DNA from: Eledone cirrhosa
Lineage: Eukaryota
Length of the DNA: 64,000 nt
Direction: 5' to 3'
NCBI GenBank assembly: GCA_964016885.1
Contig: OZ024742.1
Span: 180,296,001-180,360,000, forward strand
The number at the start of each line of letters is the position of its first letter. Positions within the stretch are counted from its first letter, which is position 1. The notes beneath the pieces were generated by a model. The model ran no database searches. It was not told the DNA's origin and saw nothing but the letters and a program-made list of their open reading frames with translations. Below, piece by piece: positions 8,779-60,482 of this stretch. Both the position numbers and the translations under genes were made by a program.

Positions 8779-8962
8779 TTGGCACTATTGGCAGAGGTTC
8801 AGACGCCATGCTTTGCAGCATAGAGTTACAGCCTTTATGATCTGAGTTCAAATCCCGCCGAGGTTAACTTTGCCTTTCATCCTTACGAGGTCGATAAAAT
8901 AAAGTACCAGTAATGTACTGGGTAATTGCTGGCCTTGTGCCTAAAATAGAAACAATTATTAT
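8779..8962 (+). mobile_element. SINE-A copy (dominant ~185-bp tRNA-headed SINE of this window)
   Basis: Consensus ggtggattggcagtatcggtagagggtcggacgcc...gagttcaaatcccgccgaggttgactttgcctttcatccttacggggtcgataaaataaagtacc...ggccttgtgcctaaagtagaaacaatt(att)n, with an A box (TGGCAGTATCGG) and a B box (GAGTTCAAATC). About 30 full or partial copies lie across the window. Confidence 0.9.
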
Positions 8963-9089
8963 TATGAATTTGATATCTCAGTCATTGATATTATTTACGG
9001 TAAAATTTACCCAAATGAACATCAAGCCACTACCTGATGGGGACAACCTTGATCTCATGATAATCCCAAATCCTTTTCAGTTATTATTA

Positions 9090-9912: not shown

Positions 9913-12900
9913 TTAGATTTTTTTTTTTGTAATTCGTGGTAATACAACATACATTTGACCATGTGAGAAGAATTGTATTGGTAGATATACACCTATCTTT
10001 TCAAATGTCTGCCCTTGTGCCTTGTTGCATGTAAGGGCAAAGGCTGGTTTGACAGGAAATTTCTTGCGAGTAAAGGTGAAAGGGAACTCAAGCTCTTGAG
10101 ATACATGTGGTTTCCTTGGGATTAGCAACCTTGTTTCAGCATTGGGACCCAATGCCACTTCAGCTTCAATTACATGATTATGTAAACTGATGATGATGAT
10201 GTAGCGTGTACCATTGCAATGCCCATTTAGAGGATCCAGATTTCTCAGAAGCATGATGCAACTGCCTTCCTTCAGTTGAAGTATGTGTTGGGAAGCCTGA
10301 TGGGGTAAGTTTGTTGATGAACTCAATTGGATTTGGCAGTATCAGTGGAAGGTTGGACGCCATGCTTTCCAGCATAGTTACGTCCCTTTACGATCTGAGT
10401 TCAAATCCCGCCGAGGTTGACTTTGCCTTTCATCGTTACGAGGTCGATAAAATAAGTACCAGTAATGCACTGGGTAATTGCTGGCCTTGTGCCTAAAGTA
10501 GAAACAATTATCTACTGTATCAGAGCTTCTGTAGATTATTTCATGACCAGGGAACTTGGTGACCATGAACTCATTCGCCAATCTTGCTACATCATTTGTT
10601 GGAGTGATATTGGCTCTATTTGCAAGCCATAGTGTGTTTGTGTAGTTTCCTGGAAGATTTGTATACACCGAATGACACAGTCCAGACACATTACAATATT
10701 CCAGACAAAGTTGATTTGGCAGAAGGATTGTGAATACACCTACAGTTGTAACAGTTGGAATGTTACCATTTCCCACATCAAGAAGGTAGTTTGCAAACTG
10801 TTTTTCATCAGAATCCTCTGCATTAATTGATCGTTTATTGGTTCTCATCTCCATGGTTTCTACATAGTCCCAGAGATAGGATCTCTTGATGGTTGCCTCA
10901 ACTATTTGTGGTCTAGCACCATGACATACAGCGGGAAGAATTTGCTCCCAGTCACCAGATAGTAATACTGCTAGACTACCAAATGGCTTTTTGCAATCTT
11001 GAACATCTTTGAAGCTCCTGTCAAGGCATTCAAAGATATGCTTATGTCCCATACCTATCTCATCAATGATTAGCAGGTCAGCTTGCTGCATAAGTTTACC
11101 TGTGTCATCCCTCTTTGTGAAGAAGCAAGTTGATTCAGCAGTCACATTGAGAGGAATCTTGGATTTGGAAGGAAGAGTTCTACCTCTGTGAAGCAAAGTG
11201 GCTGCTATTCCAGATATGGCAGTGGCAAGTGGAATTTTTTTTTATATCGGAGGTAATCCAATAGGATGTTTATGAGATAGGTCTTTCCTGTACCTGCACT
11301 TGCATTCAAGCAGAAAATTCTTCCTTCATTTTCATTTACCGAGGTGATGACTTTGTGAAAAATAACCAGTTGCTCAGGATTCAATGTTGTCAGAATTTCA
11401 TTTATGTTTGCTTGCAGTTGGTGTGTATTGAAATCAGTTTCTGCCCTAAGAACCCTGTTGATTTCTGGTATGGCAACAATAGTTGGGTCTGGCTGAGTAA
11501 GTCCATAGTTGGCATGAATGTCCAAGCCATCATGTTGAAGTCTTTGTTGGATCTTCTGTAGAACAATCTGCACGGTTTGCATGGACATGACTTGCTCATG
11601 ACGTTCATGCATGATATCCTCTGCAAGACAATAATTCCATTTCTCCCAGAACTGCAGAAGGTCATTTGGCACGCTGTACAATAAAATGGAGCAGAAGATC
11701 TCTCGCAGCTGAGGACCAAGCGTAATGGATGAGGCTTCTTCCATAGCTTTGTCTTTTTCTCTATCTTCATCTAACAGACCAAATTTGCTGCATGCTTCTT
11801 GGAATGTTGGAAATTCAACTCCTTCAATTGTCCTCAAATCTTTGTATGAAGTTGACCTAACCTTGTGATGTAGGATCATCCTGATTGATGTCTACTGAGA
11901 GATACTGTTGGAATGCATCCAAGAGATTCACTCATAAATTGTTGATCACCATCCAGATGTCCCTTTTTTCTTCTTTGCCACTTTTTGTTTGTCCAAGTGA
12001 AATATTTAGGAATATCAATATACAATATGTTTTGTGCCAGTGAGTCTCTAATATTCAGTTGAAAATATTCCGTCAACTTAGTCATTGGCTGTCCCCTAGA
12101 AAGAATACTTTCTTCCTGCCCTTGCTCATACACAACCATTTGTTCCCCAGGTAAATGGCAAGGCAACTTTTCAACTGGCGGTTTTCAATGACGTAATGGA
12201 AATTTATAGATTCACCAGAATGCTTCACTGGCTGAGATGTACCATGCATTGATATAGGTCTCAATCTCATTTTGGGCATGGACACAATTTCCTTGATCAT
12301 CCTTAATAGTGAAAGTGATCTTGTCAGATCCTTTTGTGATGTACTTATTTAAGTATTTAACAGCCTTGACACTATGGACAACCTCACAGTTGATGTGGCA
12401 CTGATATCTCAATGAGAGGAAAGGGTTGTATGGAACAATCTACCGATTATCAATAGTAAATTCTTAACCTTTATGTTGGATTGCATGGGTGTGACCACCA
12501 TGCTGTCTATCCCTTCTTCTATACTCCGGAAAGGAATTTTCGGCAACAAATGTGGTTTGTCTGAATGCCTTGGTATAACTTTTTGAGCAATGGCGTTGTT
12601 GTCCTAGCCCTTCCATACATCAGCACATCATATTAGCTTGTCCACATGGGCCATGAATGTTGCAGGTTGTGATGATCTTATGCAGAATTGGATTGGTCTC
12701 TTTATCAGAAATCTCACAGTACACTACCTGATCAATGGCATCAGCAGATTTTGGCTTGCTATCTTCAGCCATTATCAACAGAATAAGCATAAGCATGAGT
12801 GAGGCCTTGTTTTCTGCCACTCTATTGTAACAGATTGAGCCACAACTTTTCCTAGGAGATTTTTTTTCACTATGTCATCCATAAGGCTGTCATACTTGAT

Positions 12901-13090: not shown

Positions 13091-14130
13091 ACTTGTTTCA
13101 GACAATAGACTGTGCTCATGCTGGGTACCACAATTAAACGATTTGCTTGACCTCAATTCCAGTACATATATTTTAAAATCTAGTACTTATTTTATTGATC
13201 TCTTCTATTCTCTTTGAAACGTGTATGTCTATGTGTTCATATGTATGATGGTACCCTATCACTTGCGACGAGGATTCTTCCAGCTAGGTTTCTCAAATTG
13301 AACTGTATGAAATTAAGGTGAGAGTGTCTGAGCATGCCATAGACACATATAACGGAGGGTTTCAGGGTGGAACTACATTGGTTCTTCGACTTACTGGCAA
13401 AGTACACTTTTTCTTACCTCAGTGGAGAGAAGAAAAGCTAAATAAAGTGTCTTGCTCAAGAACACAATACACTGATTGGATTCAAACTCTCAACATTACA
13501 ATCACGAGACAAACACACGGACGTAAACGCACACACATAAACACACATACACAGATACAGTAACACACATATGCACACACACACATAAGCAAACAGATAC
13601 ACACACACCTATACATATATATATACACATAAACACTTATGCACACACACATATACACACATATACACTCACATAAACACACCACACATACATATATATA
13701 TATATATATATGTCGGAGTGAGTCTATGTACTTATGCAATAGTAAAAAGAATGTACACCTGTGGATTGAATCATTGGTACTGTAGTAAATTATCCTTTCC
13801 TTATTTCCACATCTTCACATACATACACACAGCCACATATACAGATAACCACACTCGTCTATCTTTCTCTCTACCTACCTATATATCTACGTATCGATCT
13901 ATCGACCTATCTATCTACCTGTCTATCTACCTCTCTCTCCCTCTCACACACACACAAATATATCTATTCTAGAGAATGTGTCCATTAGATGTATTATTGC
14001 ATTTCAAGAATTACGAAGAATTTGCAAGTTACTTCATCCGGGGAGAATTAATAACAGCTTCATTAACCTCGGAAGACGATTTGTGTGTGGTATGTATGTG
14101 TGTTTATATATATATATATAAATATATATT

Positions 14131-14770
14131 CGCGCATGCGCAGTACAGACCAACCTTCTCGCATGTGCAGTATGGACCATCCGTCGCGCATGCACTGTAT
14201 GGACCACCCTTTACGCATGCGCACTTTTGACCAGCCTTTGCGCATGCACTGTATGGACAGCCTTCGTGCATGCGCACTTCCGACCAGGCTTCGTGCATGC
14301 GCACTTCTGACCAGATGTTGCGCATGTGCAGTACAGAACAGCCATCACGCATGCGCAGAACGGATTGACCTTCGCGCATGCGCACTTCGGACCAGACTTC
14401 GCGCATGCGGAGTACGGACGGCCTTCGTGCATGTGCACTTCGGACTAGGCTTTGTGCATGCGCAGTATGGACCAGCCCTCGTGCATGTGCACTTCGGACC
14501 AGCCTATGCACATGCACACTTCGGACCAGATTCCACACATGCGCAGTACGGACCAGGATTCGCGCATGGACCACACGTCGCGCATGCGCACTTCGGACCA
14601 GCCTTCGCGCATGCGCACTTCGGACCAGCCTTCGCGCATGCGCAGTACTGACCAGCCTTCGCGTATGCGCAGTATCAACCTGCCTTCGTGCATGCGCAAT
14701 TAGCACCTTCCTTCGCGCATGCTCACTCCGGACCAGACTTCGCGCATGCACACTTCGGACCAGACTTCAC
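14131..14770. repeat. 27-bp GC-rich minisatellite (~24 units) containing GCGCATGCGC, flanked by ~130-bp direct repeats
   Basis: Unit cgcgcatgcgca(ctt/gta)cggaccagcctt. The direct repeats are at ~13976-14105 and ~14813-14946. Confidence 0.95.
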
Positions 14771-29275: not shown

Positions 29276-30821
29276 TTAAGCAATGTTATTTACTATAGTC
29301 TTTAGTCAATCCAAACCCTGTGAATGAAATTGGATGGACAGAAACGTTTTGAAATCCATATGATGGACAGTTTGTGAGTGATTGTGTGTGTGTTATTTTT
29401 CCTGTTTTCTTTGAATGGCTAAAATGGCCCTTCAACTATTGTCACAGATCACATCACTTGCCAAACAAATACATAATCATCATCACTGTTTTACGTCCAT
29501 TCTTCCACACTAGCATGGGTTAGACAGGTTGTCCTGTTGTGGGCAATGCCAGGTTAGGTGACCATGTCTTTCTCATATGGAACTGATTTTGGCTTGATTT
29601 CTACAGCTGGATACCCTTGCTAACATCAACCTCATCTACAGTGAGTACTGAGTGCTTTTTCTTTACTGTGGCACCTACACGACCACTTTACAGTGGGAGG
29701 AGAGTGGGGGGGAATACTGTCTATATGCCTGAACTTTGGCTTGTACCTGTGGGAAGTCGGGTCTTCTGGTGTTAAAACGACACTTCCACAGTGTTATTGC
29801 TTCAGTTTCATCATATAATTCTCAGATCACCTCACAAATCACCAGACAAGTACAACAACTCTAAAAGCAAGATATAAAATTAGATCTCATGACATGTGGG
29901 TGCATTGACTGGTCAGTGTTGAGTGGACTGGAGATTCTATATGGTTGACTGGAGATTCTATATGGTTCTATTCGGCATGTCTTTGTATTGTCCCCTTTTC
30001 TTGTTGCGCCCTTGTGGCTAATAAAGAAGTCTATCATTGGGAGGAGGAGGAGAAGAAGGAGAAGGAGAAGAAGAAGAAGGAGGAGGGGAGGAGGAGGAGA
30101 AGAAGAAGAAGAAGAAGAAGAAGAAGAAGAAGAAACTTGAATTTCAGATATTTTCAGCCATAGTTGGAAAAGATGATGTGAACCCCCAGCAGTGTTGCAC
30201 GTTAATATATAATTGTTTCTACTTTAGGCACAAGGCCAGCAATTACCCAGTGCATTACTGGTACTTTATTTTATCGACCCCGTAAGGATGAAAGGCAAAG
30301 TTGACCTCAGCGGGATTTGAACTCAGATCGTAAAGGGACGTAACTATGCTGGAAAGCATGGCATCCGACCCTCTACTGATACTGCCAATCCACATATAAT
30401 AATGTATAAATATATAATAATTGTTTCTACTTTAGGCACAAGGCCAGCAATTACCCAGTGTATTACTGGTACTTTATTTTATCGACCCCGTAAGGATGAA
30501 AGGCAAAGTCAACCTCGGCGGGATTAGACATATACATCAATATGTATGTATGTGTTTATAGATATGTTTGCTTAAATGTGCATGTATATATATGGAGAAC
30601 ACATCTAAGTGGGTATTTACGCATTTATGTGTGTATATATGTGTAAGTGTGAGTGTATGTATGCATGCATATATGTATGTATGCATGCATATATCTTTGT
30701 AAGCATGTATGTATGTATGTGTGTGTAAGTGTATATGTGTGAATGTGTGTGTATGTGGTTTTGTATGTATGTGGGCATTTACGCATTTATGTGTGTGTGT
30801 ATATGTGTAAGTATAACGTGA

Positions 30822-30858
<37 letters not shown>

Positions 30859-31404
30859 GTATTTACGAATGTATGTATGCATGCATATATGTATGTAAGT
30901 ATCTATGTGTGTGTAAGTATATATATATATATGTGTGTGTGTGTATGTCTATGTGTGTTTTGTATGTATGTGGGTATTTACGCATTTATGTGTGTGTGTG
31001 TGTATATGTGTAAGTATAAGTGTGAGTGTATATATATGTATCTATTTATGTATGCATGCATGCACGCATATATGTACGTAAGCATGTATGTTTGTGTGTG
31101 TAAGTATATATATGTGTATGTGTGTGTTTTTGTATGTATATATGTGGATATTTATGTATTTATGTGTGTGTATATATGTGTAAGTATACCTGTGAGTGTA
31201 TATATATATATATGTATATATTTATGTATGTATGTATGTATGTATGTATGTATGCATATATGTATGTAAGCATGTATGTATGTGTGTGTGTAAGTATATA
31301 TATGTGTTTCTGTCTATGTGTGTTTTTGTATGTATGTGGGTATTTACATATTTATGTGTGTGTATATGTGTAAGTATAAGTGTGAGTGTATTTATGTATG
31401 TATG

Positions 31405-32163
31405 CAATTGGAGCGTTTCCATCAGATGTGTCTCAGACGGATCCATGACGTTCATTGGAGGGACCACATCAGTGATGTCGAGATTTTGGAAAGCTCTATG
31501 TGTGACAGTATAGAAGCTCTTGTGCTTAAGCAACGACTCCGTTGGAGTGGTCACCTTGCCAGGATGAAGGATTCTAGAATACCAAAACAACTCTTTTATG
31601 GAGAGTTGGTTAAAGGAAAACGACCACCACATAAACCAAAAAAGAGGTATAAGGATTCCTTGAAAGCCTCTCTGAAAGACGCTAACATCTCTGCTGATAC
31701 ATGGGAGAATATTGCTGCTGATCGTAATAAATGGAGAAAGACTGTATATGAGGGAAAAGTTGCTTTAGAGGCATCTCGAATCGCTTACGAGAAAGTAAAG
31801 CGGGATGTGAGGAAGGGCATTGCTATTGCACTTCCAGATGGCGAGGGTCCTCCTATGGTGCTGACTTGCAACGTCTGTGCGAGACTCTGCCTAAGCAAAG
31901 CTGGACTCGAAAGTCATCTTCGCAGTCATAAAGTAAGACCAGTGGTTGACTACCAGGCTGCTGTTGGAGATGCTACTCATCATGCTTGCCAAACATGTGG
32001 TAGAGAATGTAAATCAGCAGGAGGGCTCAAGCGACATGCAAAAGTACACGAACTCCAACCACAGCGGACTATTCCCAGTAAATGTCTTGGATGCCGACTC
32101 TGTGCAAGACATTTTAGATCATTGGCTGGGCTAAAAAGCCACATTCGATCGCAGCGCTGTTAG
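31405..32163 (+). mobile_element. 5'-truncated RTE-clade LINE; open C-terminal ORF with three tandem C2H2-type zinc fingers
   Basis: LERFHQMCLRRI...W.D.IS..E.L...QRLRWSGHLARM.DSRIPKQLFYGEL..GKR...PKKRYKDSLK...WE..A.DR.KWR (RTE C-terminus), then CNVC-x12-HLRSH, CQTC-x12-HAKVH and CRLC-x12-HIRSQRC. The ORF-track N-terminus (31318-31404) is microsatellite. The detached 3' tail is at 32432-32478. Confidence 0.9.
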
Positions 32164-32196
32164 TTGCTATCGTGTGTGTGTGTGTAGATATGCTTA

Positions 32197-32227
<31 letters not shown>

Positions 32228-32356
32228 GTATGTGTATATTATTACTGTTGTTGTCGTTATTATTATTGTTGTTATTATTATTGTTATTATTATTGTTCTT
32301 AATGTATGTGTGTGTGTATATGTGTGTGTGTGAGTATGTGTGTGTATATATGTATG

Positions 32357-32394
<38 letters not shown>

Positions 32395-32482
32395 TATTTA
32401 TTATTATTGTTATTATTTTTTTTTTTTTCTTTCTCCTCGTGCAATGGCCATACTCGATAACAAGGGGGCAGCCATCATGTAT

Positions 32483-32893
32483 GGGAGAGATGACCCCTTA
32501 GCCTTTGTTAAGGCAGAATTCTAGGTGAAGGAAAACTCTGATATAACACCTGCGACCCTAATGGTATCCAATGATGTTGACTTGTTCTTCTTTTTGGTAA
32601 ATATCATCTTGGTTAAGAGAGTGGGACTGGCTTTGTGCAGTGCCTTTGCTCACTATAAAGGCTTCACGGCACAGGCATTGCTTTATATCTGGAGATCTCT
32701 CTGCACTTGTCGTCACATGGTACCATGGGCCCAGCACTATATGTCAATAATTGTCACAAGTGTAGTGTTTGTACCAGAGTTTTCAAGTCGCTTGCTGGAC
32801 TAAAAAGTCACACTCGTTCAGCGCATTGGTAGGGGTTCTCCTACATGGATATAAAGTAGTGGCCGTACTCGAAAACAAGTTGGCAGCCGCCAT
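32483..32893 (+). mobile_element. Non-autonomous bipartite RTE derivative, unit 1 (5'-truncated)
   Basis: Near-identical to 33265-33674. Starts at gggagagatgacccc and ends ggcagccgccat. Confidence 0.85.
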
Positions 32894-33068
32894 GCGTATA
32901 TTTGTATGTATGAGTATTTATATATATGTATGTATGTATATATTTATGTGTATGTATGTATATATGTATGTATATATATATAGATAGATTATGTATCTAT
33001 GCATGCATGTGTATATATATGTATGTATGTGTATATAGATGTATGTATGTGTATATATATATATGTCA

Positions 33069-33146
33069 GGTCACCACTTGGTGCTACTGGTAACATGTAT
33101 CCCAGTACAACCTGTTTCATGGTCGGGTCGTTGGCGACTAAACTGG
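33069..33146 (+). ncRNA. Candidate HDV-like self-cleaving ribozyme at the 5' end of the repeat unit
   Basis: P1 ggtca(33069-73)/tggtc(33120-24); P2 ccagt(33102-06)/actgg(33142-46); CC(33111-12)/GG(33125-26) as P1.1; P4 tcg-ttgg-cga; J4/2 CUAA(33138-41). P3/L3 is non-canonical. Confidence 0.4.
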
Positions 33147-33505
33147 CAACCCCACCAAGGTTTCTTGGTGAGGAGGGTGACTTTGGACATCCTGCAGGAC
33201 TAAAAACAAAACCTGTCAAAGGGCAAAGGAGCTCTTAAGAGTCAATGGCCATCCAAAATCACTGGGAGAGATGACCCCTTAGCCTTTGTCAAGGCAGAAT
33301 TCTAGGAGAAGGAAAACTCTGATATAACACCTGCAACCCTGATGGTATCCAATGATGTTGACTTGTTCTTCTTTTTGGTAAATATCATCTTGGTTAAGAG
33401 AGTGGGACTGGCTTTGTGCAGTGCCTTTGCTCACTATAAAAGCTTCACGGCACAGGCATTGCTTTATATCTGGAGATCTCTCTGCACTTGCCGTCACATG
33501 GTACC

Positions 33506-33613
33506 ATGGGCCCAGCACTATATGTCAATAATTGTCACAAGTGTAGTGTTTGTACCAGAGTTTTCAAGTCGCTTGCTGGACTAAAAAGTCACACTCGTTC
33601 AGCGCATTGGTAG
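33506..33613 (+). CDS. 35-aa mini-ORF with one canonical C2H2 zinc finger (RTE-derived remnant; expression unknown)
   Basis: MGPALYVNNCHKCSVCTRVFKSLAGLKSHTRSAHW*: C-x2-C-x3-F-x5-L-x2-H-x4-H. Shares SLAGLKSH with finger 3 of the ORF ending at 32163. Intact in units 1 and 2; a Cys is lost in units 3 and 4. Confidence 0.45.
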   Translation: MGPALYVNNCHKCSVCTRVFKSLAGLKSHTRSAHW

Positions 33614-33759
33614 GGGTTCTCCTACATGGATATAAAGTAGTGGCCGTACTCGAAAACGAGTTGGCAGCCACCATATATATATATATGTGTATATATATGT
33701 ATGTATGTGTATATATATATATATGTATGTATGTGTATATGTATGTATGTATGTATGTT

Positions 33760-34250
33760 GTGTGTCTGTTATTAGTGTTGTGTGTGTGTTATTAGTGTTG
33801 TGTGTGTGTTATTAGTGTTGTGTGTGTGTGTTATTAGTGTTGTGTGTGTGTGTTATTAGTGTTATGTGTGTGTGTTATTAGTGTTGTGTGTCTGTTATTA
33901 GTGTTGTGTGTATGTTATTAGTGTTGTGCGTCTGTTATTAGTCTTGTGTGTCTGTTATTAGTGCCGTGTGTGTGTTATTAGTGTTGTGTGTGTGTGTGTG
34001 TTATAAATGTTGTGTGTCTGTTATTAGTGTTGTGTGTGTGTGTGTTATTAGTGATGTGTGTGTGTTATTAGTGATGTGTGTGTGTTATTAGTGTTTTGTG
34101 TGTGTTATTAGTTTTGTGCGTCTGTTATTAGTGTTGTGTGTCTGTTGTTAGTGTTGTGTGTCTGTTATTAGTGTTGTGTGTGTCTTATTAGTGTTGTGTG
34201 TGTTATTAGTGTTGTGTGTTTGTTATTAGTGTTGTGTGTCTGTTATTAGT
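33760..34250. repeat. ~20-bp minisatellite (gtgttattagtgttgtgt)n
   Basis: Directly visible, about 24 units with a variable GT spacer, between units 2 and 3. Confidence 0.95.
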
Positions 34251-34258
34251 GTATATAT

Positions 34259-34855
34259 GTCAGGTCACCAGTTGGTGCTACTGGTAACATGTATCCCAGT
34301 ACAACCTGTCTCATGGTCGGGTCGTTGGCGACTAAACTGGCAACTCCACCAAAGTTTCTTGGTGAGGAGGGTGACATTGGACATCCTGCAGGACTAAAAA
34401 CAAAACCTGTCAAAAGGCAACGGACCTCTTAAGAGTCAATGGCCATCCAAAATCACCGGGAGAGATGACCCCTTAGCCTTTGTCAAGGCAGAATTCTAGG
34501 AGAAGGAAAACTCTGAACCCTGATGGTATCCAATGATGTTGACTTGTTCTTCTTTTTGGTAAATATCATATTGGTTAAGAGAGTGGGACTGGCTTTGTGC
34601 AGTGCCTTTGCTCACTATAAAAGCTTCACGGCACAGGGATTGCTTTATATCTGGAGATCTCTCTGCCCTTGTCATCACATGGTACCATGGGCCCAGCAGT
34701 ATGTGTCAATAATTGTCACAAGTTAAGTGTTTGTACCAGAGTTTTCAAGTTGCTGGCTGGACTAAAAAGTCACACTCGTTCAGCGCATTGGTAGGGCTTC
34801 TCCTACATGGATATAAAGTAGTGGCCGTACTCGAAAATGAGTTGGCAGCCACCAT
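34259..34855 (+). mobile_element. Non-autonomous bipartite RTE derivative, unit 3
   Basis: Same start gtcaggtcacca and same tail as unit 2, with a small deletion after aaaactctga. Confidence 0.85.
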
Positions 34856-34866
34856 GTATGTATGTA

Positions 34867-35368
34867 TGCTACTGGTAACATGTATCCCAGTACAACCTTT
34901 CCCATGGTCAGGTCGTTGGCGACTAAACTGGCAACCCCACCAAGGTTTCTTGGTGAGGAGGGTGACTTTGGACATCCTGCAGGACTAAAACAAAACCTGT
35001 CAAAGGGCAAAGGAGCTCTTAAAAGTCAATGGCCATCCAAAATGACCGGGAGATGTTGACTTGTTCTTCTTTTTGGTAAATATCATCTTGGTTAAGAGAG
35101 TGAGACTGGCTTTGTGCAGTGCCTTTGCTCACTATAAAAGCTTCACGGCACAGGCATTGCTTTATATCTGGAGATTTCTCTGCACTTGTCATCACATGGT
35201 ACCATGGGCCCAGCACTATGTGTCAATAATTGTCACAAGTGTAGTGTTTTTACCAGAGTTTTCAAGTCGCTGGCTGGACTAAAAAGTCACACTATTCAGC
35301 GCATTGGTAGGGGTTCTCCTACATGGATATAAAGTGGCCGTACTTGAAAACGAGTTGGCAGCCACCAT
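34867..35368 (+). mobile_element. Non-autonomous bipartite RTE derivative, unit 4 (short 5' truncation, ~90-bp internal deletion)
   Basis: Starts tgctactggtaac. The deletion joins gggagatg to gatgttgac through a gatg microhomology. Confidence 0.85.
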
Positions 35369-36152
35369 GTATGTATGCATATATGTATGTAAGCATGTAT
35401 GTATGCATGTGTGTAAGTATGTCAGTATATGTGCGTATGTGTTTGTGTCTATGCATGCATTTTTATGTGTATATATATATATATATATATGAAAGTATGT
35501 ATGTATGTGTCCGTGTCTGTGTGTGTACGTGTGTGTTTGTGTGTGTGTGTGTGTGTGTGTCCATATGTGTGTGTGTAACCAGACATTAAATACACACTGC
35601 ATCATGTAAACACTAGTTAAAAAGACAGAAAGAAAATATAAACAACACATTAATCTTCAAAGCTCATTTTCAGAGATTCAATTTTAGATATTCATTCATA
35701 AGCAAAACTATTCTTGACTATTATTAGATGAGAAAGTCAGTAAAACCAGCTGTAAACAGTTCTTCTATTGATTCTACTAAGTCATTGATGGAAGATCCTC
35801 TGGGATGTGATTACTTTTCTATGCTTTCAATAATTTTTCTGTATAAATATAATGACATGATAGTTTGAGAGTTAATGTGAGGATTTACAGGATATTTCAT
35901 TTAAAACTTTGTTTATGGTAAAATATTACTTGCATCTGTGACTTTTGACATCATATACCACATAAGACCACATTAGCATAATATTTCTCAGAAGTACAAA
36001 ACAACCTTATGACTGCATCGCATTAAATATTAAAGTCTTTGCTATGATACTGGACAAGTTGGTATAATTGGCTAGCAAACTTATCACAAAATAAGGGGGG
36101 TCAGTTCGATTCACACGTACATTAATGCCCATTTTTTTTCCATTCTGAGGTC

Positions 36153-36183
<31 letters not shown>

Positions 36184-36625
36184 GGGCATGTAAAATTCCC
36201 AAGATCCATGGACGAGTTCTCTCCAGCGGTCTCTGTCCCTCATCATCGCTGCCATGTTCTGCATCTCCAAGAGACCAGTGTCTGTCTGTAGGGCATCAAC
36301 ATATGTTAACCTTGGTCTTCCACTTCCAGTGTGTCCATGCAGGGTTCCCACAGGAGCACTGAGTGCAGTGCCAACTCTGGATGTCAGTGAGCATGTCCAG
36401 CTAACCTCAGTCTTCTCTGTGTCACTTTTGAGCTGACTTTTGGGAGTTTCCCGTAGAGCTCTGAGTTTTTCATCCTCATGTTCAGAGCCATCCTCAGCAT
36501 TCTCGTGAGTGAGTTTCTTGGTCAATGTCCAAGTCTCAGACCCGTACAGCAGCACAGACACCACTACAGCAATGAAGAGGCGGATCTTCAGGTCTTAACG
36601 AAGGTCCGACTTCCACACTGACTTA
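36153..36625 (-). mobile_element. RTE-clade LINE 3' fragment with (TAGA)n tail
   Basis: SVLLYGSETWTLTK...GSGRPRLTYVDAL...MRDRDRWRELV. Confidence 0.85.
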
Positions 36626-37153
36626 TATGCCCTGTTATTAAACTGTTTTCAATCGTCAAAAATAGCTACTAATACAATTCAAATATTGTGGATTGGCTGT
36701 ATTGGTAGAGCATCGGACAACATGCTTTGCAGCATAGAGTTACGGCCCGTTATGATCTGAGTTCAAATCCTGCCGAAGTTAATTTTGCCTTTCATCCTTA
36801 CGGGGTAGATAGAATAAAGCACCAGTAATACACTGGGATAATTGCTGGGCTTGTGCCAAAAGTAGAAACAATTATTATTATTATTATTATTATTATTACG
36901 GTCTGAGTTCAAATCCCGTCGAGGTTAACTTTGCCTTTCATCTTTACGAAGTCGATAAAATAAAGTACCAGTAAGGTACTGGGATAATTGCTGGCCTTGT
37001 GCCAAAAGTAGAAACAATTATTATTACTATTACTAGCAGAAAAAAACGCCCTTCGGCCGGTTTTCTGCTAGTGTATGTAATGAGCATATTGGTATTATAC
37101 GCAAATATATATGCATATAGATATATATAAACTGAAAAGTAAATTGACAATAT

Positions 37154-43219: not shown

Positions 43220-44130
43220 GTTTTGGGATTCAAGTTAAGAGAATTCTAAAGACAACACTGTACATCCATCCAACCATAAATACATATGCATATTATGTGA
43301 TAACCTTTTATAAGATACTGATGAAACATGTGGCAGAAGTAAAGCACAGCCAGACAGAGGGCGACCTTGTGGTGGAACAGCACAGAGGATAAAGCCATTA
43401 AAGCCAAGAGACAAGGGTGGAAAGGCTGGAAAGGTAGCTAAATGATGGTTATACACAATTGGAGAGAGACTGAAAAAAAGGTTTGCCAATGTCTTGAGAT
43501 GTGAAGACCAGAGATGTGAAGAGTTCTGCATTGCAAGGGAGTGTGTTAGTGTAAATCGGGGGAGGAAAATGTGTTAGAAATGACACTGGTGCAGCAGTTC
43601 AATCATACTTTGCTACAAGGGCAAATGTGAGGCTCTAAAAAGGAGCAACTACAGAGGACCAACTTTTAAAAGTGATGGAAAGCATTATAGCATAACTAAT
43701 TAGGAAAAGAGTCAAATTAGATGAGATGCAGTTCGGTTTCATGCCTGGGAAAAGTACTAAATATGCCTTCTACTTTAAGGCAACTACAAGAGAAATTCCT
43801 AGCTTAGAATAAGCCACTATATTTAGCTTTTGTAGACCTAGAAAAGGCCTTTGACAAAGAATCTTGATCTAATATCTGGTGGTCCTAAAGGAAATTAGAA
43901 GAATGGCTTGTAAGAGTAGTGTAAGCCATATACAGAGGCAATGTCAGTAAAGTGAAAGTAGGAAGTGAGTTTAGTCAGGAATTCAAGGTACAGGTAGGAG
44001 TTCATGAGGGTTCAGTTCTCAGCCCACTGCTGTTCATCATAGTTCTCCTTGCCATAACAGAGGAGTTTAAAACTGGCTGTCCATGGGAACTTTTCTATGC
44101 AGATGATTATTTCCTTATAGCTGAATCCAT
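43220..44130 (+). mobile_element. RTE/Bov-B-like RT fragment, decayed
   Basis: CYKGK.EALKRSNYRG, LDEMQFGFMPGKST, FVDLEKAFD, VGVHEGSVLSPLLF and ELFYADD. Confidence 0.88.
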
Positions 44131-44439
44131 CCAGGATAATGTAATAAACAGAGGATGTATAGGTGATACTGTCTCTCTTCTTTTTTATAATATTGACATT
44201 CTGTTTGATACCTTATAGGTAATACCATAAAGTACTCACGTTGTAGAGTGCTTATGTCTCTTTACACTACAGTCACTCAATTGTTTGATCAACCAATGCT
44301 TTATATATATATATTGAAATTAAATTACAAAAAACTCTAATTCTGGGAGTATAAACAAGATAGATGAAAAATGTTTCTATCTAACTTCATTGAGATGTTT
44401 AGGTATTACACACTAATTAACGTTTAATATATATATCAT

Positions 44440-46345
44440 CATCATCATCATCATCATCGTTTAACGTCCATGTTCCACGCTTGCATGGGTTTGGACGGGA
44501 GTTTTCCCACTTGAGGCAAGAGTGGTTGTCTTGCTCGCATAGGACTGTCTGGCGGGTTTTCTACAGTTGGATGCCCTTCCTAACACCAACCACATTTACA
44601 GTGTGGGGCTGGGAGGTTTTTACCATGTTGCCTACACGGCCACATTACAGCGTGGACTGTTTCGCTGGTTTTCTACAGCTGGATGCCCTTCCTAACACCA
44701 ACCACATTTACAGTGTAGGGCTGGGAGGTTTTTACCGTGTTGCCTACACGGCCATATTTACAGCGTGGACTGTGTGTTTTTTTTTGTCATGACACCTACA
44801 CGATCTCATTTGTTTCGGCCTGGATTTTGTGGCACCAACAGACCTTTACATTGATTGGGGCGGTGTGGATGGGGTTGGGGTAGTGGGACGGGGGGTGTAT
44901 TTTGTTAGAGATGCCTACTGACTGTAGTAGGTTTTACTTTGTATTTAGGTAAGGCGGGTCTTCTCTATTACTGAGTACCGCCAAAGGTCTCGGTCCAGTG
45001 ACATTGTCTTGGAGAGGTGTAAGTGTGTGAGGTCGGAATTTATCAGCTCGTCCCAGGTTTTTCTGGGTCTGCCTACTCCGTGGCTACCATCTATCTTTAT
45101 TGCCCTGCACTTTGCTATACAGCTGTTGTCTTTCATGCGCATCACATGACCATACCAACGTAGCCTTATCTCGAGTAAACAACATCTGATCCCTCTTATT
45201 TCTAATTTTTTCCTTAGTTTGTTTATGCTTTGCCGTTCGCGTATATTACTATTACACATCCAGCGGAGCATGCAAGCTTCGTTCCTCTCTAGTCTGCGTA
45301 TATCCTCTGCACACAATGCCCAGGTCTCACTGCCATGCAACATTGCTGTTCGTATGCAGGCATCATACAACCTGCCTTTCATTTTTAGGGAGAACGCTTT
45401 AGCGGCTAATAGTGGTATAAGCTCTCTGAATTTTTTCCATCCAGTTCTGACTCTAGCTACTGTACTTTCAGAGCACCCTCCCCCACTGCTGATTTTGTCA
45501 CCCAGGTAACGGAAGCTGTCCACTATTTCTATAGAACCCTCTGCGCAATTGAAAGAGCTAGTATTTATGGGCACTTGCTGCTACTTATTGCACCAGAGCA
45601 CCGGCCACATGTAAAATCTGTGTTCTTAGTTAGCTTACCTGTGATCCCACTACATCTTTTATGCACCCATACTTTGCATTTGGGACATAAAATGGAGTTT
45701 CTACCTACGCCTTTCCTACACACTGAGCATAGCCATATCCCAGAAGGGACCGCCGCCTTATTTTCTTTCTTACAAACTAGAACTTTAGTCTTAGCCAGGT
45801 TAATTTTAAGGCCTTTTGATTCTAGGCCGTGCTTCCATGTTTGGAATTTCTTCTCTAGCTCGGCCATTGATTCAGCTATGAGCGTTAGATCATCTGCGTA
45901 TAGGAGTTCCCATGGGCAGCCGGTCTTGAACTCCTCTATTATAGCCTGAAGGGCAATAATAAATAGTAGGGGGCTAAGAACAGAGCCCTGATGGACACCA
46001 ACCTTTACGCTAAACTCTTCACTATATTCGTTGTTAATTCTAACCTTGCTCACTGTTTCTTTATACATGGCTTGTATAGCTCTCACAAGCCATTCGTCAA
46101 CACCTAGTTTTCTAAGAGCCCACCAGATAATGGAACGGGGGACTCTGTCGAAGGCTTTCTCCAAGTCGACAAAGGCTAAGTATAGGGGTTTACTTTTAGC
46201 TAGGTACTTCTCCTGTAGTTGTCGTACAATGAAAAGAGCGTCTGTGGTACTTTTGCCTGACACAAACCCGAACTGCATTTCATCTAGATCGATTCTCTCT
46301 CTGATTAGTTGCGCTATTACTTTTTCCGTGACCTTCATGACCTGG
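44440..46345 (-). mobile_element. 5'-truncated RTE/Bov-B-like LINE; RT with embedded PHD-like finger, one frameshift, complete 3'UTR and (GAT)n tail
   Basis: ORFs 45565-46338 (QFGF, FVDLEKAFDRV, GVHQGSVLSP, LYADD, C-x2-C...C-x2-C-x4-H-x2-C...C-x2-C) and 44945-45574 (FRYLG, HGSETW, RLRWYGHVMR, GRPRKTW). Confidence 0.95.
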
Positions 46346-46463
46346 AGTGAGGGGGAGTGTGAGAGCAGCGGGAATATTATTTAGAATTATAGAAAACAAA
46401 CAATTATTGTAAGATATATAGACAAACAATTATTGTAAGATATATAGATGCGAGGACTCGCAT

Positions 46464-57019: not shown

Positions 57020-58015
57020 AGTGATATAATGTGGTGTAGTGTGGTATAGTGTGGTGTAGTATGGTATAATGTGGTGTTGTGTGGTATAGTGTGGTATTGT
57101 GTGGTATAATGTAGTATAGTGTGGCGTTGTGTGATATAATGTGGTGTTGTGTGGTATAGTGTGGTGTAGTGTGGTATAATGAGGTGTTGTGTGGTATAGT
57201 TTGGTGTTGTGTTGTATAGTATGGTGTTGTGTGGTATAGTGTGGTGTTGTGTGGTATAATGTAGTATAGTGTGGTGTAGTGTGGTAAAGTGTGGTGTAGT
57301 GTGGTGTAGTGTGGTGTTGTGTGGTATAGTATGGTGTTGTGTGGTATTGTATGGTATAGTGTGGTGTTTTATGGTATAGTGTGGTGTTGTGTAGTATAGT
57401 GTGGTGTAGTGTGGTATAGTATGGTGTTGTATGGTATAATTAGGTGTTTGTGTGGTATAATGTGGTGTTGTGTGGTAAAGGGTGGTGTAGTGTGGTATAA
57501 TGAGGTGTTGTGTGGTATAGTTTGGTGTTGTGTTGTATAGTATGGTGTTGTGTGGTATAGTGTGGTGTTGTGTGGTATAATGTAGTATAGTGTGGTGTAG
57601 TGTGGTAAAGTGTGGTGTAGTGTGGTGTAGTGTGGTGTTGTGTGGTATAGTATGGTGTTGTGTGGTATTGTATGGTATAGTGTGGTGTTTTATGGTATAG
57701 TGTGGTGTTGTGTAGTATAGTGTGGTGTAGTGTGGTATAGTATGGTGTTGTATGGTATAATTAGGTGTTGTGTGGTATAATGTGGTGTTGTGTGGTAAAG
57801 TGTGGTGTAGTGTGGTGTAGTGTGGTGTAGTGTGGTATAGTATGGTGTTGTGTGGTATTGTATGGTATAGTGTGGTGTTGTGTAGTATAGTGTGGTGTAG
57901 TGTGGTATAGTATGGTGTTGTATGGTATAATTAGGTGTTGTGTGGTATAATGAGGTGTTGTGTGGTATAATGTGGTGTTGTGTGGTGTTGTGTGGTGTAA
58001 TGTGGTGTAATGTTG
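57020..58015. repeat. Pentamer-based satellite (GTGGT/GTAGT/ATAGT/GTTGT) with higher-order duplication
   Basis: ~1 kb. The diagnostic string gtggtataatgaggtgttgtgtggtatagtttgg occurs at 57171 and 57492 (321-bp period). Confidence 0.93.
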
Positions 58016-60482
58016 GTGGCATGATAATGGTTAATGGTTCATGTTAACTATGGTTCAGTTAACTGTGAATGTCTGTGTGTTGTTTATAGGCTGGCAGGGT
58101 AAGGCTGATAGTGAATTGGTTAACAGATCAGTTAACATCTATCGTGTCACTGACAACATCATAATTAGATTTACAAAATAAAAAAAAGGAAAGAACATTT
58201 TTTAAAAAGCACAAAAATAAACAATCAATTAAATCCCTAAACAGATATACAAATATATGGAAGGCTTGAATTGCATGAAACAGATCTGTACAATATGGAA
58301 GGAAGGACAGGAAATTGAAAAATTAGATTTGAAGAACACTGACATGTTTCATGTTCGTCTAAATGTCCTAATGTTTGGATATTTATTGATTCTTCACCGT
58401 TTTTTGCTGTTATTGATTTTTATTTGTTATTTAGATATCAAATTATTTTTTTCACTTTTTTCTTCTAGTTTCTTTTTATTTCAATCTCCTCAATTTAATG
58501 TTTTGTTGCTTTTTTATATCTTATTTTATACTTCCATTTTCTAATTTTGCATATTCTTTCCCTTGATTTACAATCCCCCTTACTTTCTCTTATTTATTTA
58601 TCTTTCATTTTCTCTCTATCTGTCTTTCTCTTTTTCACTTTATCTATCTTCCTTTGTTTCTTTTTCCATTACTTTTGCATTTTAAAACTCTCTCTCTCTA
58701 TATATATATATATTTATATATATACATATATATAAATACATATGTATATATATATATATATACATTTATATATATATATATATAAAACAATAGATCTATG
58801 TATATGTCTATCTCTATCTCTCCCTCTATCTATCTATAGATCTATCCATCAATCTATTTAAATCTATCTATTTATCAATACATATCAAATACCCACTCTA
58901 TCTTATATTCCTTCTTCCATTAATTCTTTCTTACATCTTTCCATTTCAACTCAACAACTTCCTTCTTTCAATTCTAACATTTTTCTTTTTCCTGAACTTT
59001 CTCTTTTTACAGTTTCTTTTTTCATTTTAAAAACTTTTCCTTCAATCCTTCTCGCTCCACTTCCTTTCTATCTTTCCTTATTTCCTACATTTGTTCCTTC
59101 AATATTCAATTTCTTTCATCTATTTCTTCAAAAAACATTTTTTCTTTTTCCTCATTCATTTACTTTGCTTTTTTACAGTTTCAACTCGTTTTTCTTCAAA
59201 ACCCAACTTTTCCTTTTAACAATCTTTTATTACTTCCTTTCTTTTATCTGTTCTTTTTTGTTTGATAATTTCCTTCTTTTTCTCTTTCTTTCTAATTTGT
59301 TTGATTATTTCTTTTATTCATTTCAGTTTTCTTTCTTTCTGTCTTTCTTTAATTGTTTGCTCTTTTACTTCCTTCTTTCCTTCTTTCTTTATTTGTCCAG
59401 CCCATGCAAATCATGGAAATTGGACTTAGAACAATAACTCTAACTTTAACACTGACAAAACAAAACACTGTTGAATAAAATAAAAACAAGTTCTAAACCT
59501 GTAGAGCCTGTATACTAAATTTGCTCTCGGTGTATGTCTGACTTTTATTGTTCTTATAATCTTGCTTAACACTTTTGGCTTGGAACCATCTCCAGGTTCT
59601 ACAATACAAAACTTTATTTAAATGTATTTATATTTATCTAAATACCTACCATCATAATTTTATGTGAGAACTTTTGTTAATTTATTCTTCAAACACCAAC
59701 CTAGAATAAGAAAATCAGTTATATTAATAAATCCTTCCGAAATCTTCATTAGTTTCAAAATGGTTTGAAAAATCATGGGCAGTGTCATTCATTAAGAATA
59801 TGGGAAGGGTTAAAGTGCTTCTATGTATCAAAACGCTTACCATCGTAATTTTATGTAAGAAGCTTTGTTAAGATATGCTCCAGCTTATTAATGAGAAAGT
59901 TAGTCATATTACCAAATCTATAAATTTTTTATTATTTTTCAAATGATTTGAAAATCATAGGCAGTGTTTTACATTAGAAATATGGAAATGAAAGAGTTAA
60001 ATAGACATCAATGAAAACATTAAACATATACATGTGACCAAATATCCTGTTAATTTGGAAGCAGTGTAAGCATGAAATACGACTCTGAAATCATTTCCAA
60101 AAGATTCCCTATGATAAAAAAGAATGATATTAATTTGAAATTTCATTAAATTGCCATTTTCACATAAATATATTCTGATTTTTTTCTTTGAACTTTTATC
60201 TGAGCATAACATAGAAATATATTCTTCAACTGTTCAATGTATTTTATATGATAATCAGAATATATATATATATGTATGTGTGTGTATGTTTGTGTACATA
60301 CATACATGAAAAACGGAACTAAAATGATGATAATGAAGATGATGATGGTGATCGTGATGATGATGATTATGGTGGTTATATATAAGTATAATTAATTGAT
60401 AAACTCACGGCCCGAAGTCTTTCCAGCAAGATGATTTAATTTGAATTATCTTTCCATAGAACATCTTAAAGTAATTGCTTTT

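What the first reader, a model, noticed from the sequence alone, without database searches (positions are those of the whole stretch)
31405..35368. Stacked RTE system: a zinc-finger RTE followed by four head-to-tail internally deleted derivatives, all inserted in (GTAT)n
Seen: five co-oriented elements lie within 4 kb, each ending in the same tail motif tggcc.tactcga.aac.ag..ggcagcc(a/g).cat followed by gtat/at-type microsatellite. The four ~600-bp units consist of an RTE-type 5'UTR (ctaggagaaggaaaactctga) joined to the last C2H2 finger and the 3' tail, with no RT. They have different 5' truncation points (32483, 33065, 34259, 34867) and private indels, which suggests repeated retrotransposition rather than simple tandem duplication. 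Known: bipartite 5'+3' RTE non-autonomous elements and R2 SIDEs exist. Inference: this family targets the microsatellite that its own tail creates, so it piles up into self-extending arrays, mobilised by the ZnF-RTE clade next to it.
Basis: partly seen in the sequence, partly recalled or inferred. Interest (0 to 1): 0.72.

Follow-up and report, generated by a model that had tools for sequence, protein, structure and literature searches.

The report
Microsatellite-seeking RTE parasite, parent found
The four repeats are copies of a 607-base parasitic jumping element (over 20,000 per genome) formed by deleting the middle of a zinc-finger RTE retrotransposon other than the one beside it; its copies sit mostly in GTAT/TA microsatellites, so repeated insertion likely stacks them head to tail.

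Summary
Observation largely confirmed; interpretation partly. The units are a dispersed non-autonomous family U: 607 bp, 21,293 matches to a junction-spanning pattern, about 1.8% diverged. U is an internal deletion of a 4.06-kb zinc-finger RTE, RTE-B, found here: U 1-425 and 428-607 frame its ORF, and the majority bases differ at 4 of 605 positions. The neighbouring RTE-A is only a sister family (57% protein identity). Stacking is genome-wide: 9 of 99 consecutive gaps are under 2 kb, all co-oriented, against 0.7-1.3 expected; neighbouring tails run 43 same to 2 opposite. 51 of 75 5' flanks are GT/TA repeats against 5.7% background. 'Its tail creates the target' is not supported: tracts are symmetric, duplications come from the target, and the stack splits an older repeat array. 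Most neighbours share no rare variant (38 of 53 pairs), but U1 and U2 share a likely conversion tract and a local clade is not rejected. Bipartite RTEs are known; this strong microsatellite bias was not found in the papers searched. The scan saw like elements earlier on other DNA of this genome (e1-8894651, e1-9598424).

The parts
30654..31404 (+). Older compound GT/AT micro/minisatellite, left half of the target; ends in the 11-bp left duplication ATGTATGTATG (31394-31404)
31405..32478 (+). RTE-A, 5'-truncated copy: end of the ORF (RT C-terminal part and three C2H2 fingers, stop at 32161-32163), a microsatellite-filled 3'UTR that is part of the element, and the 3' stem-loop with (CAT) end
   Evidence: (40 of 40 scored hits 96-100%; the 3'UTR repeats recur in the dispersed copies)
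32482..32891 (+). U1: bipartite element, family positions 198-607 (5'-truncated), 3 nt behind the RTE-A tail
33063..33672 (+). U2: full-length U (ATG plus positions 1-607), young subfamily; positions 457-543 likely converted from U1
33063..33155 (+). Conserved structured 5' head shared by RTE-B and related short families; can be drawn as a non-canonical HDV-like ribozyme (unproven)
   Evidence: no Rfam ribozyme hit
33256..33462 (+). Conserved RTE 5'UTR core (U 191-397), ~69% identical to the RTE-A 5'UTR
33490..33495 (+). Deletion junction (U ~425-430) inside a ~20-bp imperfect repeat shared by the RTE-B 5'UTR and its second zinc finger
33536..33607 (+). Last C2H2 finger of RTE-B retained in U2
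   Evidence: (zf-C2H2 E 3.8e-5)
33637..33674 (+). 3' double stem-loop and CCACCAT end, likely the RT recognition signal
33756..34252 (+). 20-bp GT-rich minisatellite (24 copies) between U2 and U3; not found in any other fetched locus
34257..34853 (+). U3: full-length U with a 13-bp internal deletion
34867..35366 (+). U4: family positions 17-607 with an 86-bp internal deletion, 13 nt behind the U3 tail
35367..35508 (+). Right half of the older compound repeat; begins with the right duplication ATGTATGTATG and continues the array unit (52 of 54 identical to 31244-31297)

Best explanation
The four units are copies of a 607-bp internal-deletion derivative of the zinc-finger retrotransposon RTE-B, likely copied by RTE reverse transcriptase into pre-existing GTAT/TA microsatellites, where repeated, likely mostly independent insertions stack them head to tail. 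Shown: parentage, copy number, flank bias, target-site duplications starting with AT, polarity and clustering. Inferred: the deletion arose by recombination or template switch between a ~20-bp look-alike in the 5'UTR and in finger 2. The ORF protein of RTE-B (and perhaps RTE-A) binds the shared 3' stem-loop. The endonuclease nicks inside the repeat and the RNA's CAU end pairs with the primer. Each insertion duplicates part of the repeat, so both flanks stay targets of the same polarity. Afterwards neighbours occasionally convert or duplicate each other; U2 likely received positions 457-543 from U1.
For: Parent: 7 of 20 long RTE-B stretches carry U 1-~425 at 91-98% upstream of an APE-RT-C2H2 ORF, one more from position 99; 19 of 20 carry U ~428-607. 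Majority bases differ at 2 of 425 and 2 of 180 positions; junction homology. Dispersal: 40 of 40 scored hits 99-100%; 20,460 tail matches, which include RTE-B tails; 21,293 matches to a junction-spanning pattern; 4 copies in 400 kb of arbitrary stretches. Target: 51 of 75 5' and 54 of 75 3' flanks simple GT/TA, against 1515 of 26,610 arbitrary 30-mers. 74 of 75 3' flanks begin ATGT or ATAT; flank type agrees in 29 of 37 (Fisher p 6e-4); duplications of 8 bp or more in 38 of 75 against a shuffled mean of 17.8, maximum 26. Stacking: 9 of 99 gaps under 2 kb, 9 of 9 co-oriented; 28 of 70 anchors have a co-oriented guild tail within 1.5 kb, 43 same to 2 opposite; 7 of 30 RTE-A-type tails have a U starting within 100 nt. 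Independence: 38 of 53 neighbour pairs share no rare non-CpG variant. Same age: U, RTE-A and RTE-B all have median divergence ~1.8%. Tail covariation: 4 of 7 pairs change on both sides across 9 sequences.
Against: 9 of 53 neighbour pairs share 2 or more rare variants against 1.0% of background pairs, so local duplication or conversion contributes. Holding U1-U4 as one clade is not rejected and fits better than the free tree (p-AU 0.62; bootstrap unsettled). All four share 543T, although this is a CpG site and U1, U3 and U4 show 8 of 29 CpG decays against 78 of 925 elsewhere. 21 of 213 copies have a long 3' tract but a short 5' tract, against 12 the other way, so some tail addition is possible. 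No empty-site alleles were examined. Which enzyme moves U was not tested: the youngest U copies (35, median 0.3%) have no equally young RTE-B among 33 sampled, but the sample is too small to decide.
Confidence: 0.8

Rival explanations
1. One reading: the element itself adds a (GTAT)n tail at insertion, and that new tail is the preferred target for the next copy.
For: Perfect (ATGT)5+ tracts are rare in arbitrary DNA (8 listed in 400 kb, five of them in or at one stack) and mostly lie beside guild elements. 25 of 213 copies start within 50 nt of an upstream guild tail. Lepidopteran RTEs are reported to generate microsatellites (PMC2887409, abstract).
Against: Tract lengths are equal on both sides (means 71.7 and 71.9 nt, p 0.72). 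Duplications with unique letters and no added tail exist (L084, L097, L131, L144). No convincing unique duplication with a repeat spacer among 37 copies with complex 5' flanks (three script calls were chance 7-mers or a local duplication). Only 46 of 213 copies have a recognisable guild tail within 200 nt upstream. The window's stack splits an older array.
Confidence: 0.15
2. The stack grew mainly by local DNA duplication or gene conversion from one or two insertions, or arrived as a read-through multimer.
For: U1 and U2 share 457A (2 of 134 others), 509T (0 of 136) and 543T; the AU test does not reject a local clade. Clear local duplicates occur in L138, L139, L114 and L067. An earlier scan note describes a duplicated array in this genome (e1-8894651).
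Against: U2 carries young-subfamily letters (12C, 51T, 198T, 426C) that U3 and U4 lack. U2 lacks U1's 376, 593 and 605 changes, which fits a short conversion tract. U3 and U4 are closer to dispersed copies (3.5%, 2.2%) than to each other (4.5%). The spacers are unrelated in length and sequence.
Confidence: 0.15
3. The co-orientation reflects loss of closely spaced inverted copies rather than polar targeting.
For: Inverted neighbours are nearly absent (2 of 45). Instability of close inverted repeats is established for Alu (recalled).
Against: Same-strand close pairs are in absolute excess (9 against 0.7-1.3 expected for both orientations), which loss alone cannot produce. The flanks read GTAT on the element's sense strand.
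Confidence: 0.07
4. U was born from RTE-B, but its recent copies are moved by RTE-A, which shares the tail stem.
For: Near-identical tail stem-loops. 30 of 51 sampled RTE-A copies against 1 of 24 RTE-B copies are under 1% diverged (both samples were picked by similarity).
Against: The unbiased RTE-A sample (n 12) is as old as RTE-B. Young U are only 1 of 94 unbiased copies, so few young RTE-B would be expected among ~243 candidates.
Confidence: 0.3

Closest known systems
Bipartite ORF-less non-autonomous RTE LINEs (Bov-A, RTESINE1/2, WALLSI3, RTE-N2_Lch; Kojima 2018, PMC5786205, parts 1-3 of 5 read)
   Same: True 5' end plus 3' end of an RTE joined by internal deletion; no tRNA head seen; short-repeat end; far more copies than the parent.
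   Different: Here the 3' part keeps an intact C2H2 finger, several sister RTEs each have a short family, and the copies sit in and stack within GTAT/TA microsatellites.
RTE-2_OV of Octopus vulgaris (Petrosino 2022, PMC9115989, section 6 and passages read)
   Same: Single-ORF RTE with endonuclease, RT and C2H2 finger, and a 3'UTR made mostly of microsatellite starting at the stop, as in RTE-A.
   Different: Sequence identity could not be tested (no motif match in 8 supplement files searched, 4 not searched). In the parts read, the paper describes no bipartite partner or target bias. RTE-B has a short 3'UTR without that microsatellite.
RTE insertion signature (Nishiyama and Ohshima 2018, PMC6007223; PMC13295347; passages read)
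   Same: The first base of the duplication agrees with the 3' repeat of the RNA, and priming by base-pairing is proposed.
   Different: [quoted passage not shown] Here 68% of 5' flanks are such repeats. PMC6007223 names only Tx1 and R1 as APE clades with site-specific members.
Tandem TEs by double insertion (McGurk and Barbash, bioRxiv 10.1101/158386, abstract and section 8 read)
   Same: [quoted passage not shown]
   Different: Described in Drosophila; here the shared site is a microsatellite used by several families.
HDV-like ribozymes at the 5' end of RTE and R2 elements (cited in PMC5786205, PMC6765202, PMC3774820; Ruminski 2011 itself not held)
   Same: The head can be drawn in the same nested order (P1, P2, P3/L3 with CC, P1.1, P4, a C-U/G-A-A linker), with the cut predicted at the observed 5' end.
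   Different: P1 is interrupted, there are 4 extra bases between P2 and P3, there is no Rfam hit, and the pseudoknot helices have no two-sided changes.

Membership tests
Bipartite non-autonomous RTE | 5' end shared with an autonomous RTE | tested here: met
   U 1-~425 at 91-98% in 7 of 20 long RTE-B stretches; 2 majority differences in 425 positions
Bipartite non-autonomous RTE | 3' end shared with the same RTE | tested here: met
   U ~428-607 follows the RTE-B ORF in 30 of 30 loci and 19 of 20 stretches
Bipartite non-autonomous RTE | No RT or endonuclease coding capacity | tested here: met
   only one finger remains
Bipartite non-autonomous RTE | Dispersed copies with fixed 3' end, 5' truncation and target-site duplications | tested here: met
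Bipartite non-autonomous RTE | Mobilised in trans by RTE protein | not testable with these tools
   inferred from the shared tail and equal age
RTE clade (RTE-A, RTE-B) | Single ORF with APE endonuclease and RT | tested here: met
   Pfam Exo_endo_phos and RVT_1 above cut-off in both families; the sampled copies carry stops or frameshifts
RTE clade (RTE-A, RTE-B) | RT phylogeny within the RTE clade | not tested
   no RT tree built; assignment rests on architecture, the 5'UTR motif and C-terminal motifs recalled as RTE-type
Derivative of the adjacent RTE-A | High identity to RTE-A at both ends | tested here: not met
   ~69% over U 191-397 only; RTE-A against RTE-B 66-68% nt, 57% aa. RTE-A's own derivative is a different family, B4
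tRNA/5S-headed SINE | Small-RNA-derived Pol III head | tested here: not met
   no tRNA or 5S match in Rfam at E<=5; the head is the RTE-B 5' end
Sequence-specific (site-specific) LINE | Nearly all copies at one defined target sequence | tested here: inconclusive
   74 of 75 3' junctions begin ATGT/ATAT, but only 51 of 75 5' flanks are simple repeats, of two types: a strong preference, not strict specificity
HDV-like ribozyme | Match to a curated model | tested here: not met
HDV-like ribozyme | Nested double pseudoknot supported by covariation | tested here: inconclusive
   94.0% of cells paired against 92.6% for the unknotted fold; two-sided changes only in a hairpin common to both models and one P4 pair; 10 related sequences
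HDV-like ribozyme | Self-cleavage at the 5' end | not testable with these tools
   needs a co-transcriptional cleavage assay

The most novel reading that the evidence does not exclude
These three-finger RTEs form a microsatellite-targeting lineage of the RTE clade, which the papers read do not list among the site-specific APE clades. At least five autonomous families and four short families share a covarying 3' stem-loop, and most that could be seen share a 5' head that is a non-canonical self-cleaving ribozyme. They use GTAT/TA tracts as polar safe-harbour sinks, and the short element outnumbers its parent by one to two orders of magnitude and has switched to a sister enzyme.
Probability: 0.25. 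Interest if true: 0.65.

Novelty: new variant of a known kind. Interest (0 to 1): 0.42.

Why it matters
It gives a complete parent-derivative pair with a mapped deletion junction in a genome whose short repeats are poorly classified (893 of 900 recently active SINE families unclassified in O. vulgaris, PMC13282606). It makes a standing question testable: whether RTE 3' repeats make microsatellites or find them. Here the data favour finding them. A strong polar microsatellite bias in an APE-type RTE would widen the list of targeted LINEs and explain retroposon stacks that can seed satellites. The basic element type is well known, so the surprise is moderate.

Tried and rejected
Parent hunts that failed before the tblastn found it: three 'not-U' patterns gave 51, 129 and 76 matches; those listed (51, the first 100, 76) read as indel or truncation variants of U, and none of 60 fetched loci had new RTE coding sequence joined to the U 3' part. 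One such pattern was out of register and simply counted U. A back-translated guess at the parent's second finger gave 0 matches. A loose end from a public run mapped to one unrelated place. The protein database search with the unit's peptide gave nothing. RTE-D is old (79-84% among hits) and was rejected as the mover. Expression: no RNA holder listed; the contigs laid show presence only. Twister, hammerhead, twister-sister and hatchet readings of the head were considered by eye from recalled consensus; none fitted fully, and Rfam gave only microsatellite-driven miRNA and other sub-threshold hits. Single-sequence folding of the U head is no better than shuffles (z -0.3 and -0.2). Base reading by the fingers as the cause of targeting was considered and rated low: the recognition positions are mostly S/A/G and the linkers are long and not TGEKP-type (positions recalled, not tested). 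Six literature searches listed no paper on this family or on microsatellite-targeting RTEs; subscription papers and Repbase were not searchable, so U may already be a Repbase or Dfam entry.
Full report
Setting. The window is G000:C3:180296001-180360000 in a 3.0-Gb animal genome. Earlier scan notes call it an octopus; I did not test that.

Anatomy. 31405-32478 is a 5'-truncated LINE, RTE-A, whose frame ends in three C2H2-like fingers. It is dispersed and young: 40 of 40 scored hits are 96-100% identical, among 1735 candidates. The TG/ATT/TA/T repeats after its stop recur in the other copies, so they are its 3'UTR. Long copies encode APE endonuclease, RT and fingers in one ORF. Four units follow: U1 32482-32891 (family positions 198-607), U2 33066-33672 (1-607), U3 34260-34853 (1-607, 13-bp deletion) and U4 34867-35366 (17-607, 86-bp deletion). 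U2 and U3 share the full-length 5' end, so only two units are truncated.

U is a large dispersed family. All 40 scored hits of U2 are 99-100% identical over 605-607 bases. An exact 38-mer of the tail occurs 20,460 times; this count includes RTE-B tails. A pattern spanning the deletion junction occurs 21,293 times. Forty arbitrary 10-kb stretches hold 4 copies. Unbiased copies have a median divergence of 1.8% from the majority; a young subfamily (35 copies seen, 1 of 94 unbiased) has a median of 0.3%. U2 belongs to that subfamily.

The parent is not the neighbour. RTE-A matches U only over 191-397, at ~69%. After several failed hunts (see Tried and rejected), a tblastn of the unit's finger against all fetched loci found a fragment in L178 with two further fingers upstream of the U tail. 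Searching with it gave 243 candidates, 40 scored at 96-100%. All 30 loci fetched continue into the U 3' part. Of 20 longer stretches, 7 begin with U 1-~425 at 91-98% and one from position 99; six of the seven are 4014-4072 bp long and one is 3400. They encode Exo_endo_phos, RVT_1 and zf-C2H2. U and RTE-B majority bases differ at 4 of 605 positions. The junction lies in a ~20-bp imperfect repeat shared by the 5'UTR and finger 2, so the deletion was likely homology-guided. RTE-A and RTE-B are 57% identical in protein and 66-68% in DNA. RTE-A has its own bipartite derivative, B4: 12 of 30 loci with the RTE-A tail, against 16 with RTE-A ORF and 2 unassigned. Further short families (B2, B3) and older finger RTEs (C, D, E, F) end in the same kind of tail. 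Across 9 such tails a 7-pair double stem has 95% of cells paired and 4 pairs with two-sided changes; 0 of 500 shuffles reach the covariation score, though that control ignores relatedness.

Target. Among 75 copies taken from consecutive pattern hits on C1 (30's loci, 45), 51 5' flanks and 54 3' flanks are at least 80% TA/AT/TG/GT dinucleotides. The background is 5.7% of 26,610 arbitrary 30-mers. 74 of 75 3' flanks begin ATGT or ATAT. Flank type agrees on both sides in 29 of 37 copies (p 6e-4). Duplications of 8 bp or more occur in 38 of 75 against 17.8 (maximum 26) in shuffled pairings, and some carry unique letters with no added tail. In 213 copies the tracts are equally long on both sides (71.7 and 71.9 nt, p 0.72); 21 have only a 3' tract, 12 only a 5' tract. 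Of 37 copies with complex 5' flanks, none shows a convincing unique duplication with a repeat spacer. In the window, the whole stack is framed by an 11-bp duplication, and the right flank continues the older array on the left (52 of 54 identical; score 98 against a maximum of 83 in 70 control loci). The repeat is therefore mostly the target, not a product of the tail. Against this reading, perfect (ATGT)5+ tracts are rare and mostly lie beside guild elements, which does not tell cause from effect.

Stacking. Of 99 gaps between the first 100 consecutive tail hits, 9 are under 2 kb and all 9 are co-oriented; 0.7-1.3 are expected. Around 70 anchors, 43 further guild tails lie in the same orientation and 2 in the opposite; 28 anchors have a same-strand neighbour within 1.5 kb. 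Anchors inside one stack count each other, so these are not independent. Seven of 30 RTE-A-type tails have a U starting within 100 nt, the arrangement seen in the window.

Insertion or duplication. The tree had 140 copies covering positions 290 or less to 600 or more; two double-fetched rows were dropped for the pair counts. 38 of 53 neighbour pairs share no rare non-CpG variant, and 9 share two or more, against 1.0% of 9400 background pairs. So most stacks look like independent insertions with a real minority of local duplicates. In the window, U1 and U2 share 457A, 509T and 543T, while U2 keeps young-subfamily letters up to 426 and lacks U1's changes at 376, 593 and 605; a conversion tract from U1 fits best. 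All four share 543T, a CpG site, at a locus where U1, U3 and U4 show 8 of 29 CpG decays against 78 of 925 elsewhere. The free tree needs three changes for the four, but the AU test does not reject one clade (p 0.62; the held tree scored 9.6 higher; bootstrap unsettled), so phylogeny alone does not settle it.

Mechanism (inferred). U keeps what an RTE RNA needs in cis. The ORF protein likely binds the 3' stem-loop, nicks inside the repeat and primes on the CAU end; priming by 3' repeats is proposed in PMC6007223 (passages). Duplication leaves a same-polarity target on each side, so later copies of any guild member land head to tail. U, RTE-A and RTE-B expanded together (median ~1.8% each), so RTE-B is the likely main mover; RTE-A may move the youngest copies, but the sample cannot decide. 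31 of 75 copies are full-length with a common 5' end. The head is conserved across families and can be drawn as an HDV-like fold cutting at that end. Rfam has no hit, and pair counts do not separate it from an unknotted fold, so this stays a lead.

Comparison. Bipartite ORF-less RTEs are established (PMC5786205, parts 1-3 of 5). RTE-2_OV resembles RTE-A in layout (PMC9115989, section 6 and passages; 8 supplement files searched, 4 not, which could hold its sequence). Other papers seen: PMC2887409 (abstract), PMC13295347 (passages), PMC13282606 (part 1 of 3), bioRxiv 158386 (abstract and section 8), bioRxiv 2022.11.04.512097 (abstract), PMC6765202, PMC12988792 and PMC3774820 (passages). Six searches listed nothing on this family or on microsatellite-targeting RTEs; Repbase was not available. 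Labels such as RTE 5'UTR motif, Dong/R4-like and the C2H2 recognition positions are partly recalled. Earlier scan notes report a like element in a 25-kb array and in a satellite, and Dong/R4-like elements in the same repeats; I did not check that they are the same family.

Verdict. A real, genome-wide system of a known element type, with an identified parent and an unusually strong polar microsatellite preference; the self-made-target loop is not supported. New variant of a known kind; interest 0.42.

Noticed in passing
L061 ~1500-2800, L065 ~1250-2475, L072, L074 (RTE-A 5' ends): Long RTE-A copies lack the conserved head that RTE-B and RTE-A's own short derivative B4 keep. They carry over 1.2 kb of shared upstream sequence with microsatellites and a SINE-like piece: likely 5' switching or capture, as reported for tobacco RTEs.
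   Followed up: partly
U positions 198-206 (window 33263-33271): 5' truncations cluster at the start of the conserved RTE core (13 rows listed among 134 copies, one double-listed; U1 is one), and an RTE-A-type copy in L058 starts at the same place: a possible RT stall or second RNA 5' end.
   Followed up: no
U position 428 (window 33493): The A/G polymorphism at the deletion junction (51 A, 221 G of 288) matches the 5' and the 3' parent letter respectively, so U may descend from two nearby crossovers, or one may have mutated into the other.
   Followed up: partly
L032, L034, L035, L105, L328, L339 (3' flanks); L069, L072, L074: Another LINE with an ACAT-type end often sits in the same tracts on the opposite strand; its ORF motifs look R4/Dong-like (recalled).
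   Followed up: no
L066:2752-3300, L065, L029, L080, L141, L126, L144, L132:2563-3751, L034, L033, L140, L247: At least three more bipartite families and four older zinc-finger RTE families with related tails; B3 pairs with RTE-C by its tail.
   Followed up: partly
window 31405-35366: CpG decay in U1, U3 and U4 (8 of 29) is above the 95th percentile of other copies, which suggests a methylated locus.
   Followed up: partly
window, e.g. 8779-8965, 10328-10514, 30203-30393, 36688-37035: About 20 copies of a ~190-bp SINE-like repeat, often in ATT/TAA tracts.
   Followed up: no
window 36180-36630 (- strand), 43760-46350, 6109-6690: Fragments of other LINE families.
   Followed up: no
window 14129-14768 and 57021-58018: 27-bp and 20-bp minisatellites.
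   Followed up: no
G000:C4:203.8-204.7 Mb (L314-L320): An old RTE-D fragment recurs seven times at ~120-170-kb spacing with near-equal scores, suggesting a large tandem segmental duplication.
   Followed up: no
P0001-P0013: Multi-finger RTE C-termini occur in other unnamed animal-like assemblies at 41-61% identity.
   Followed up: no
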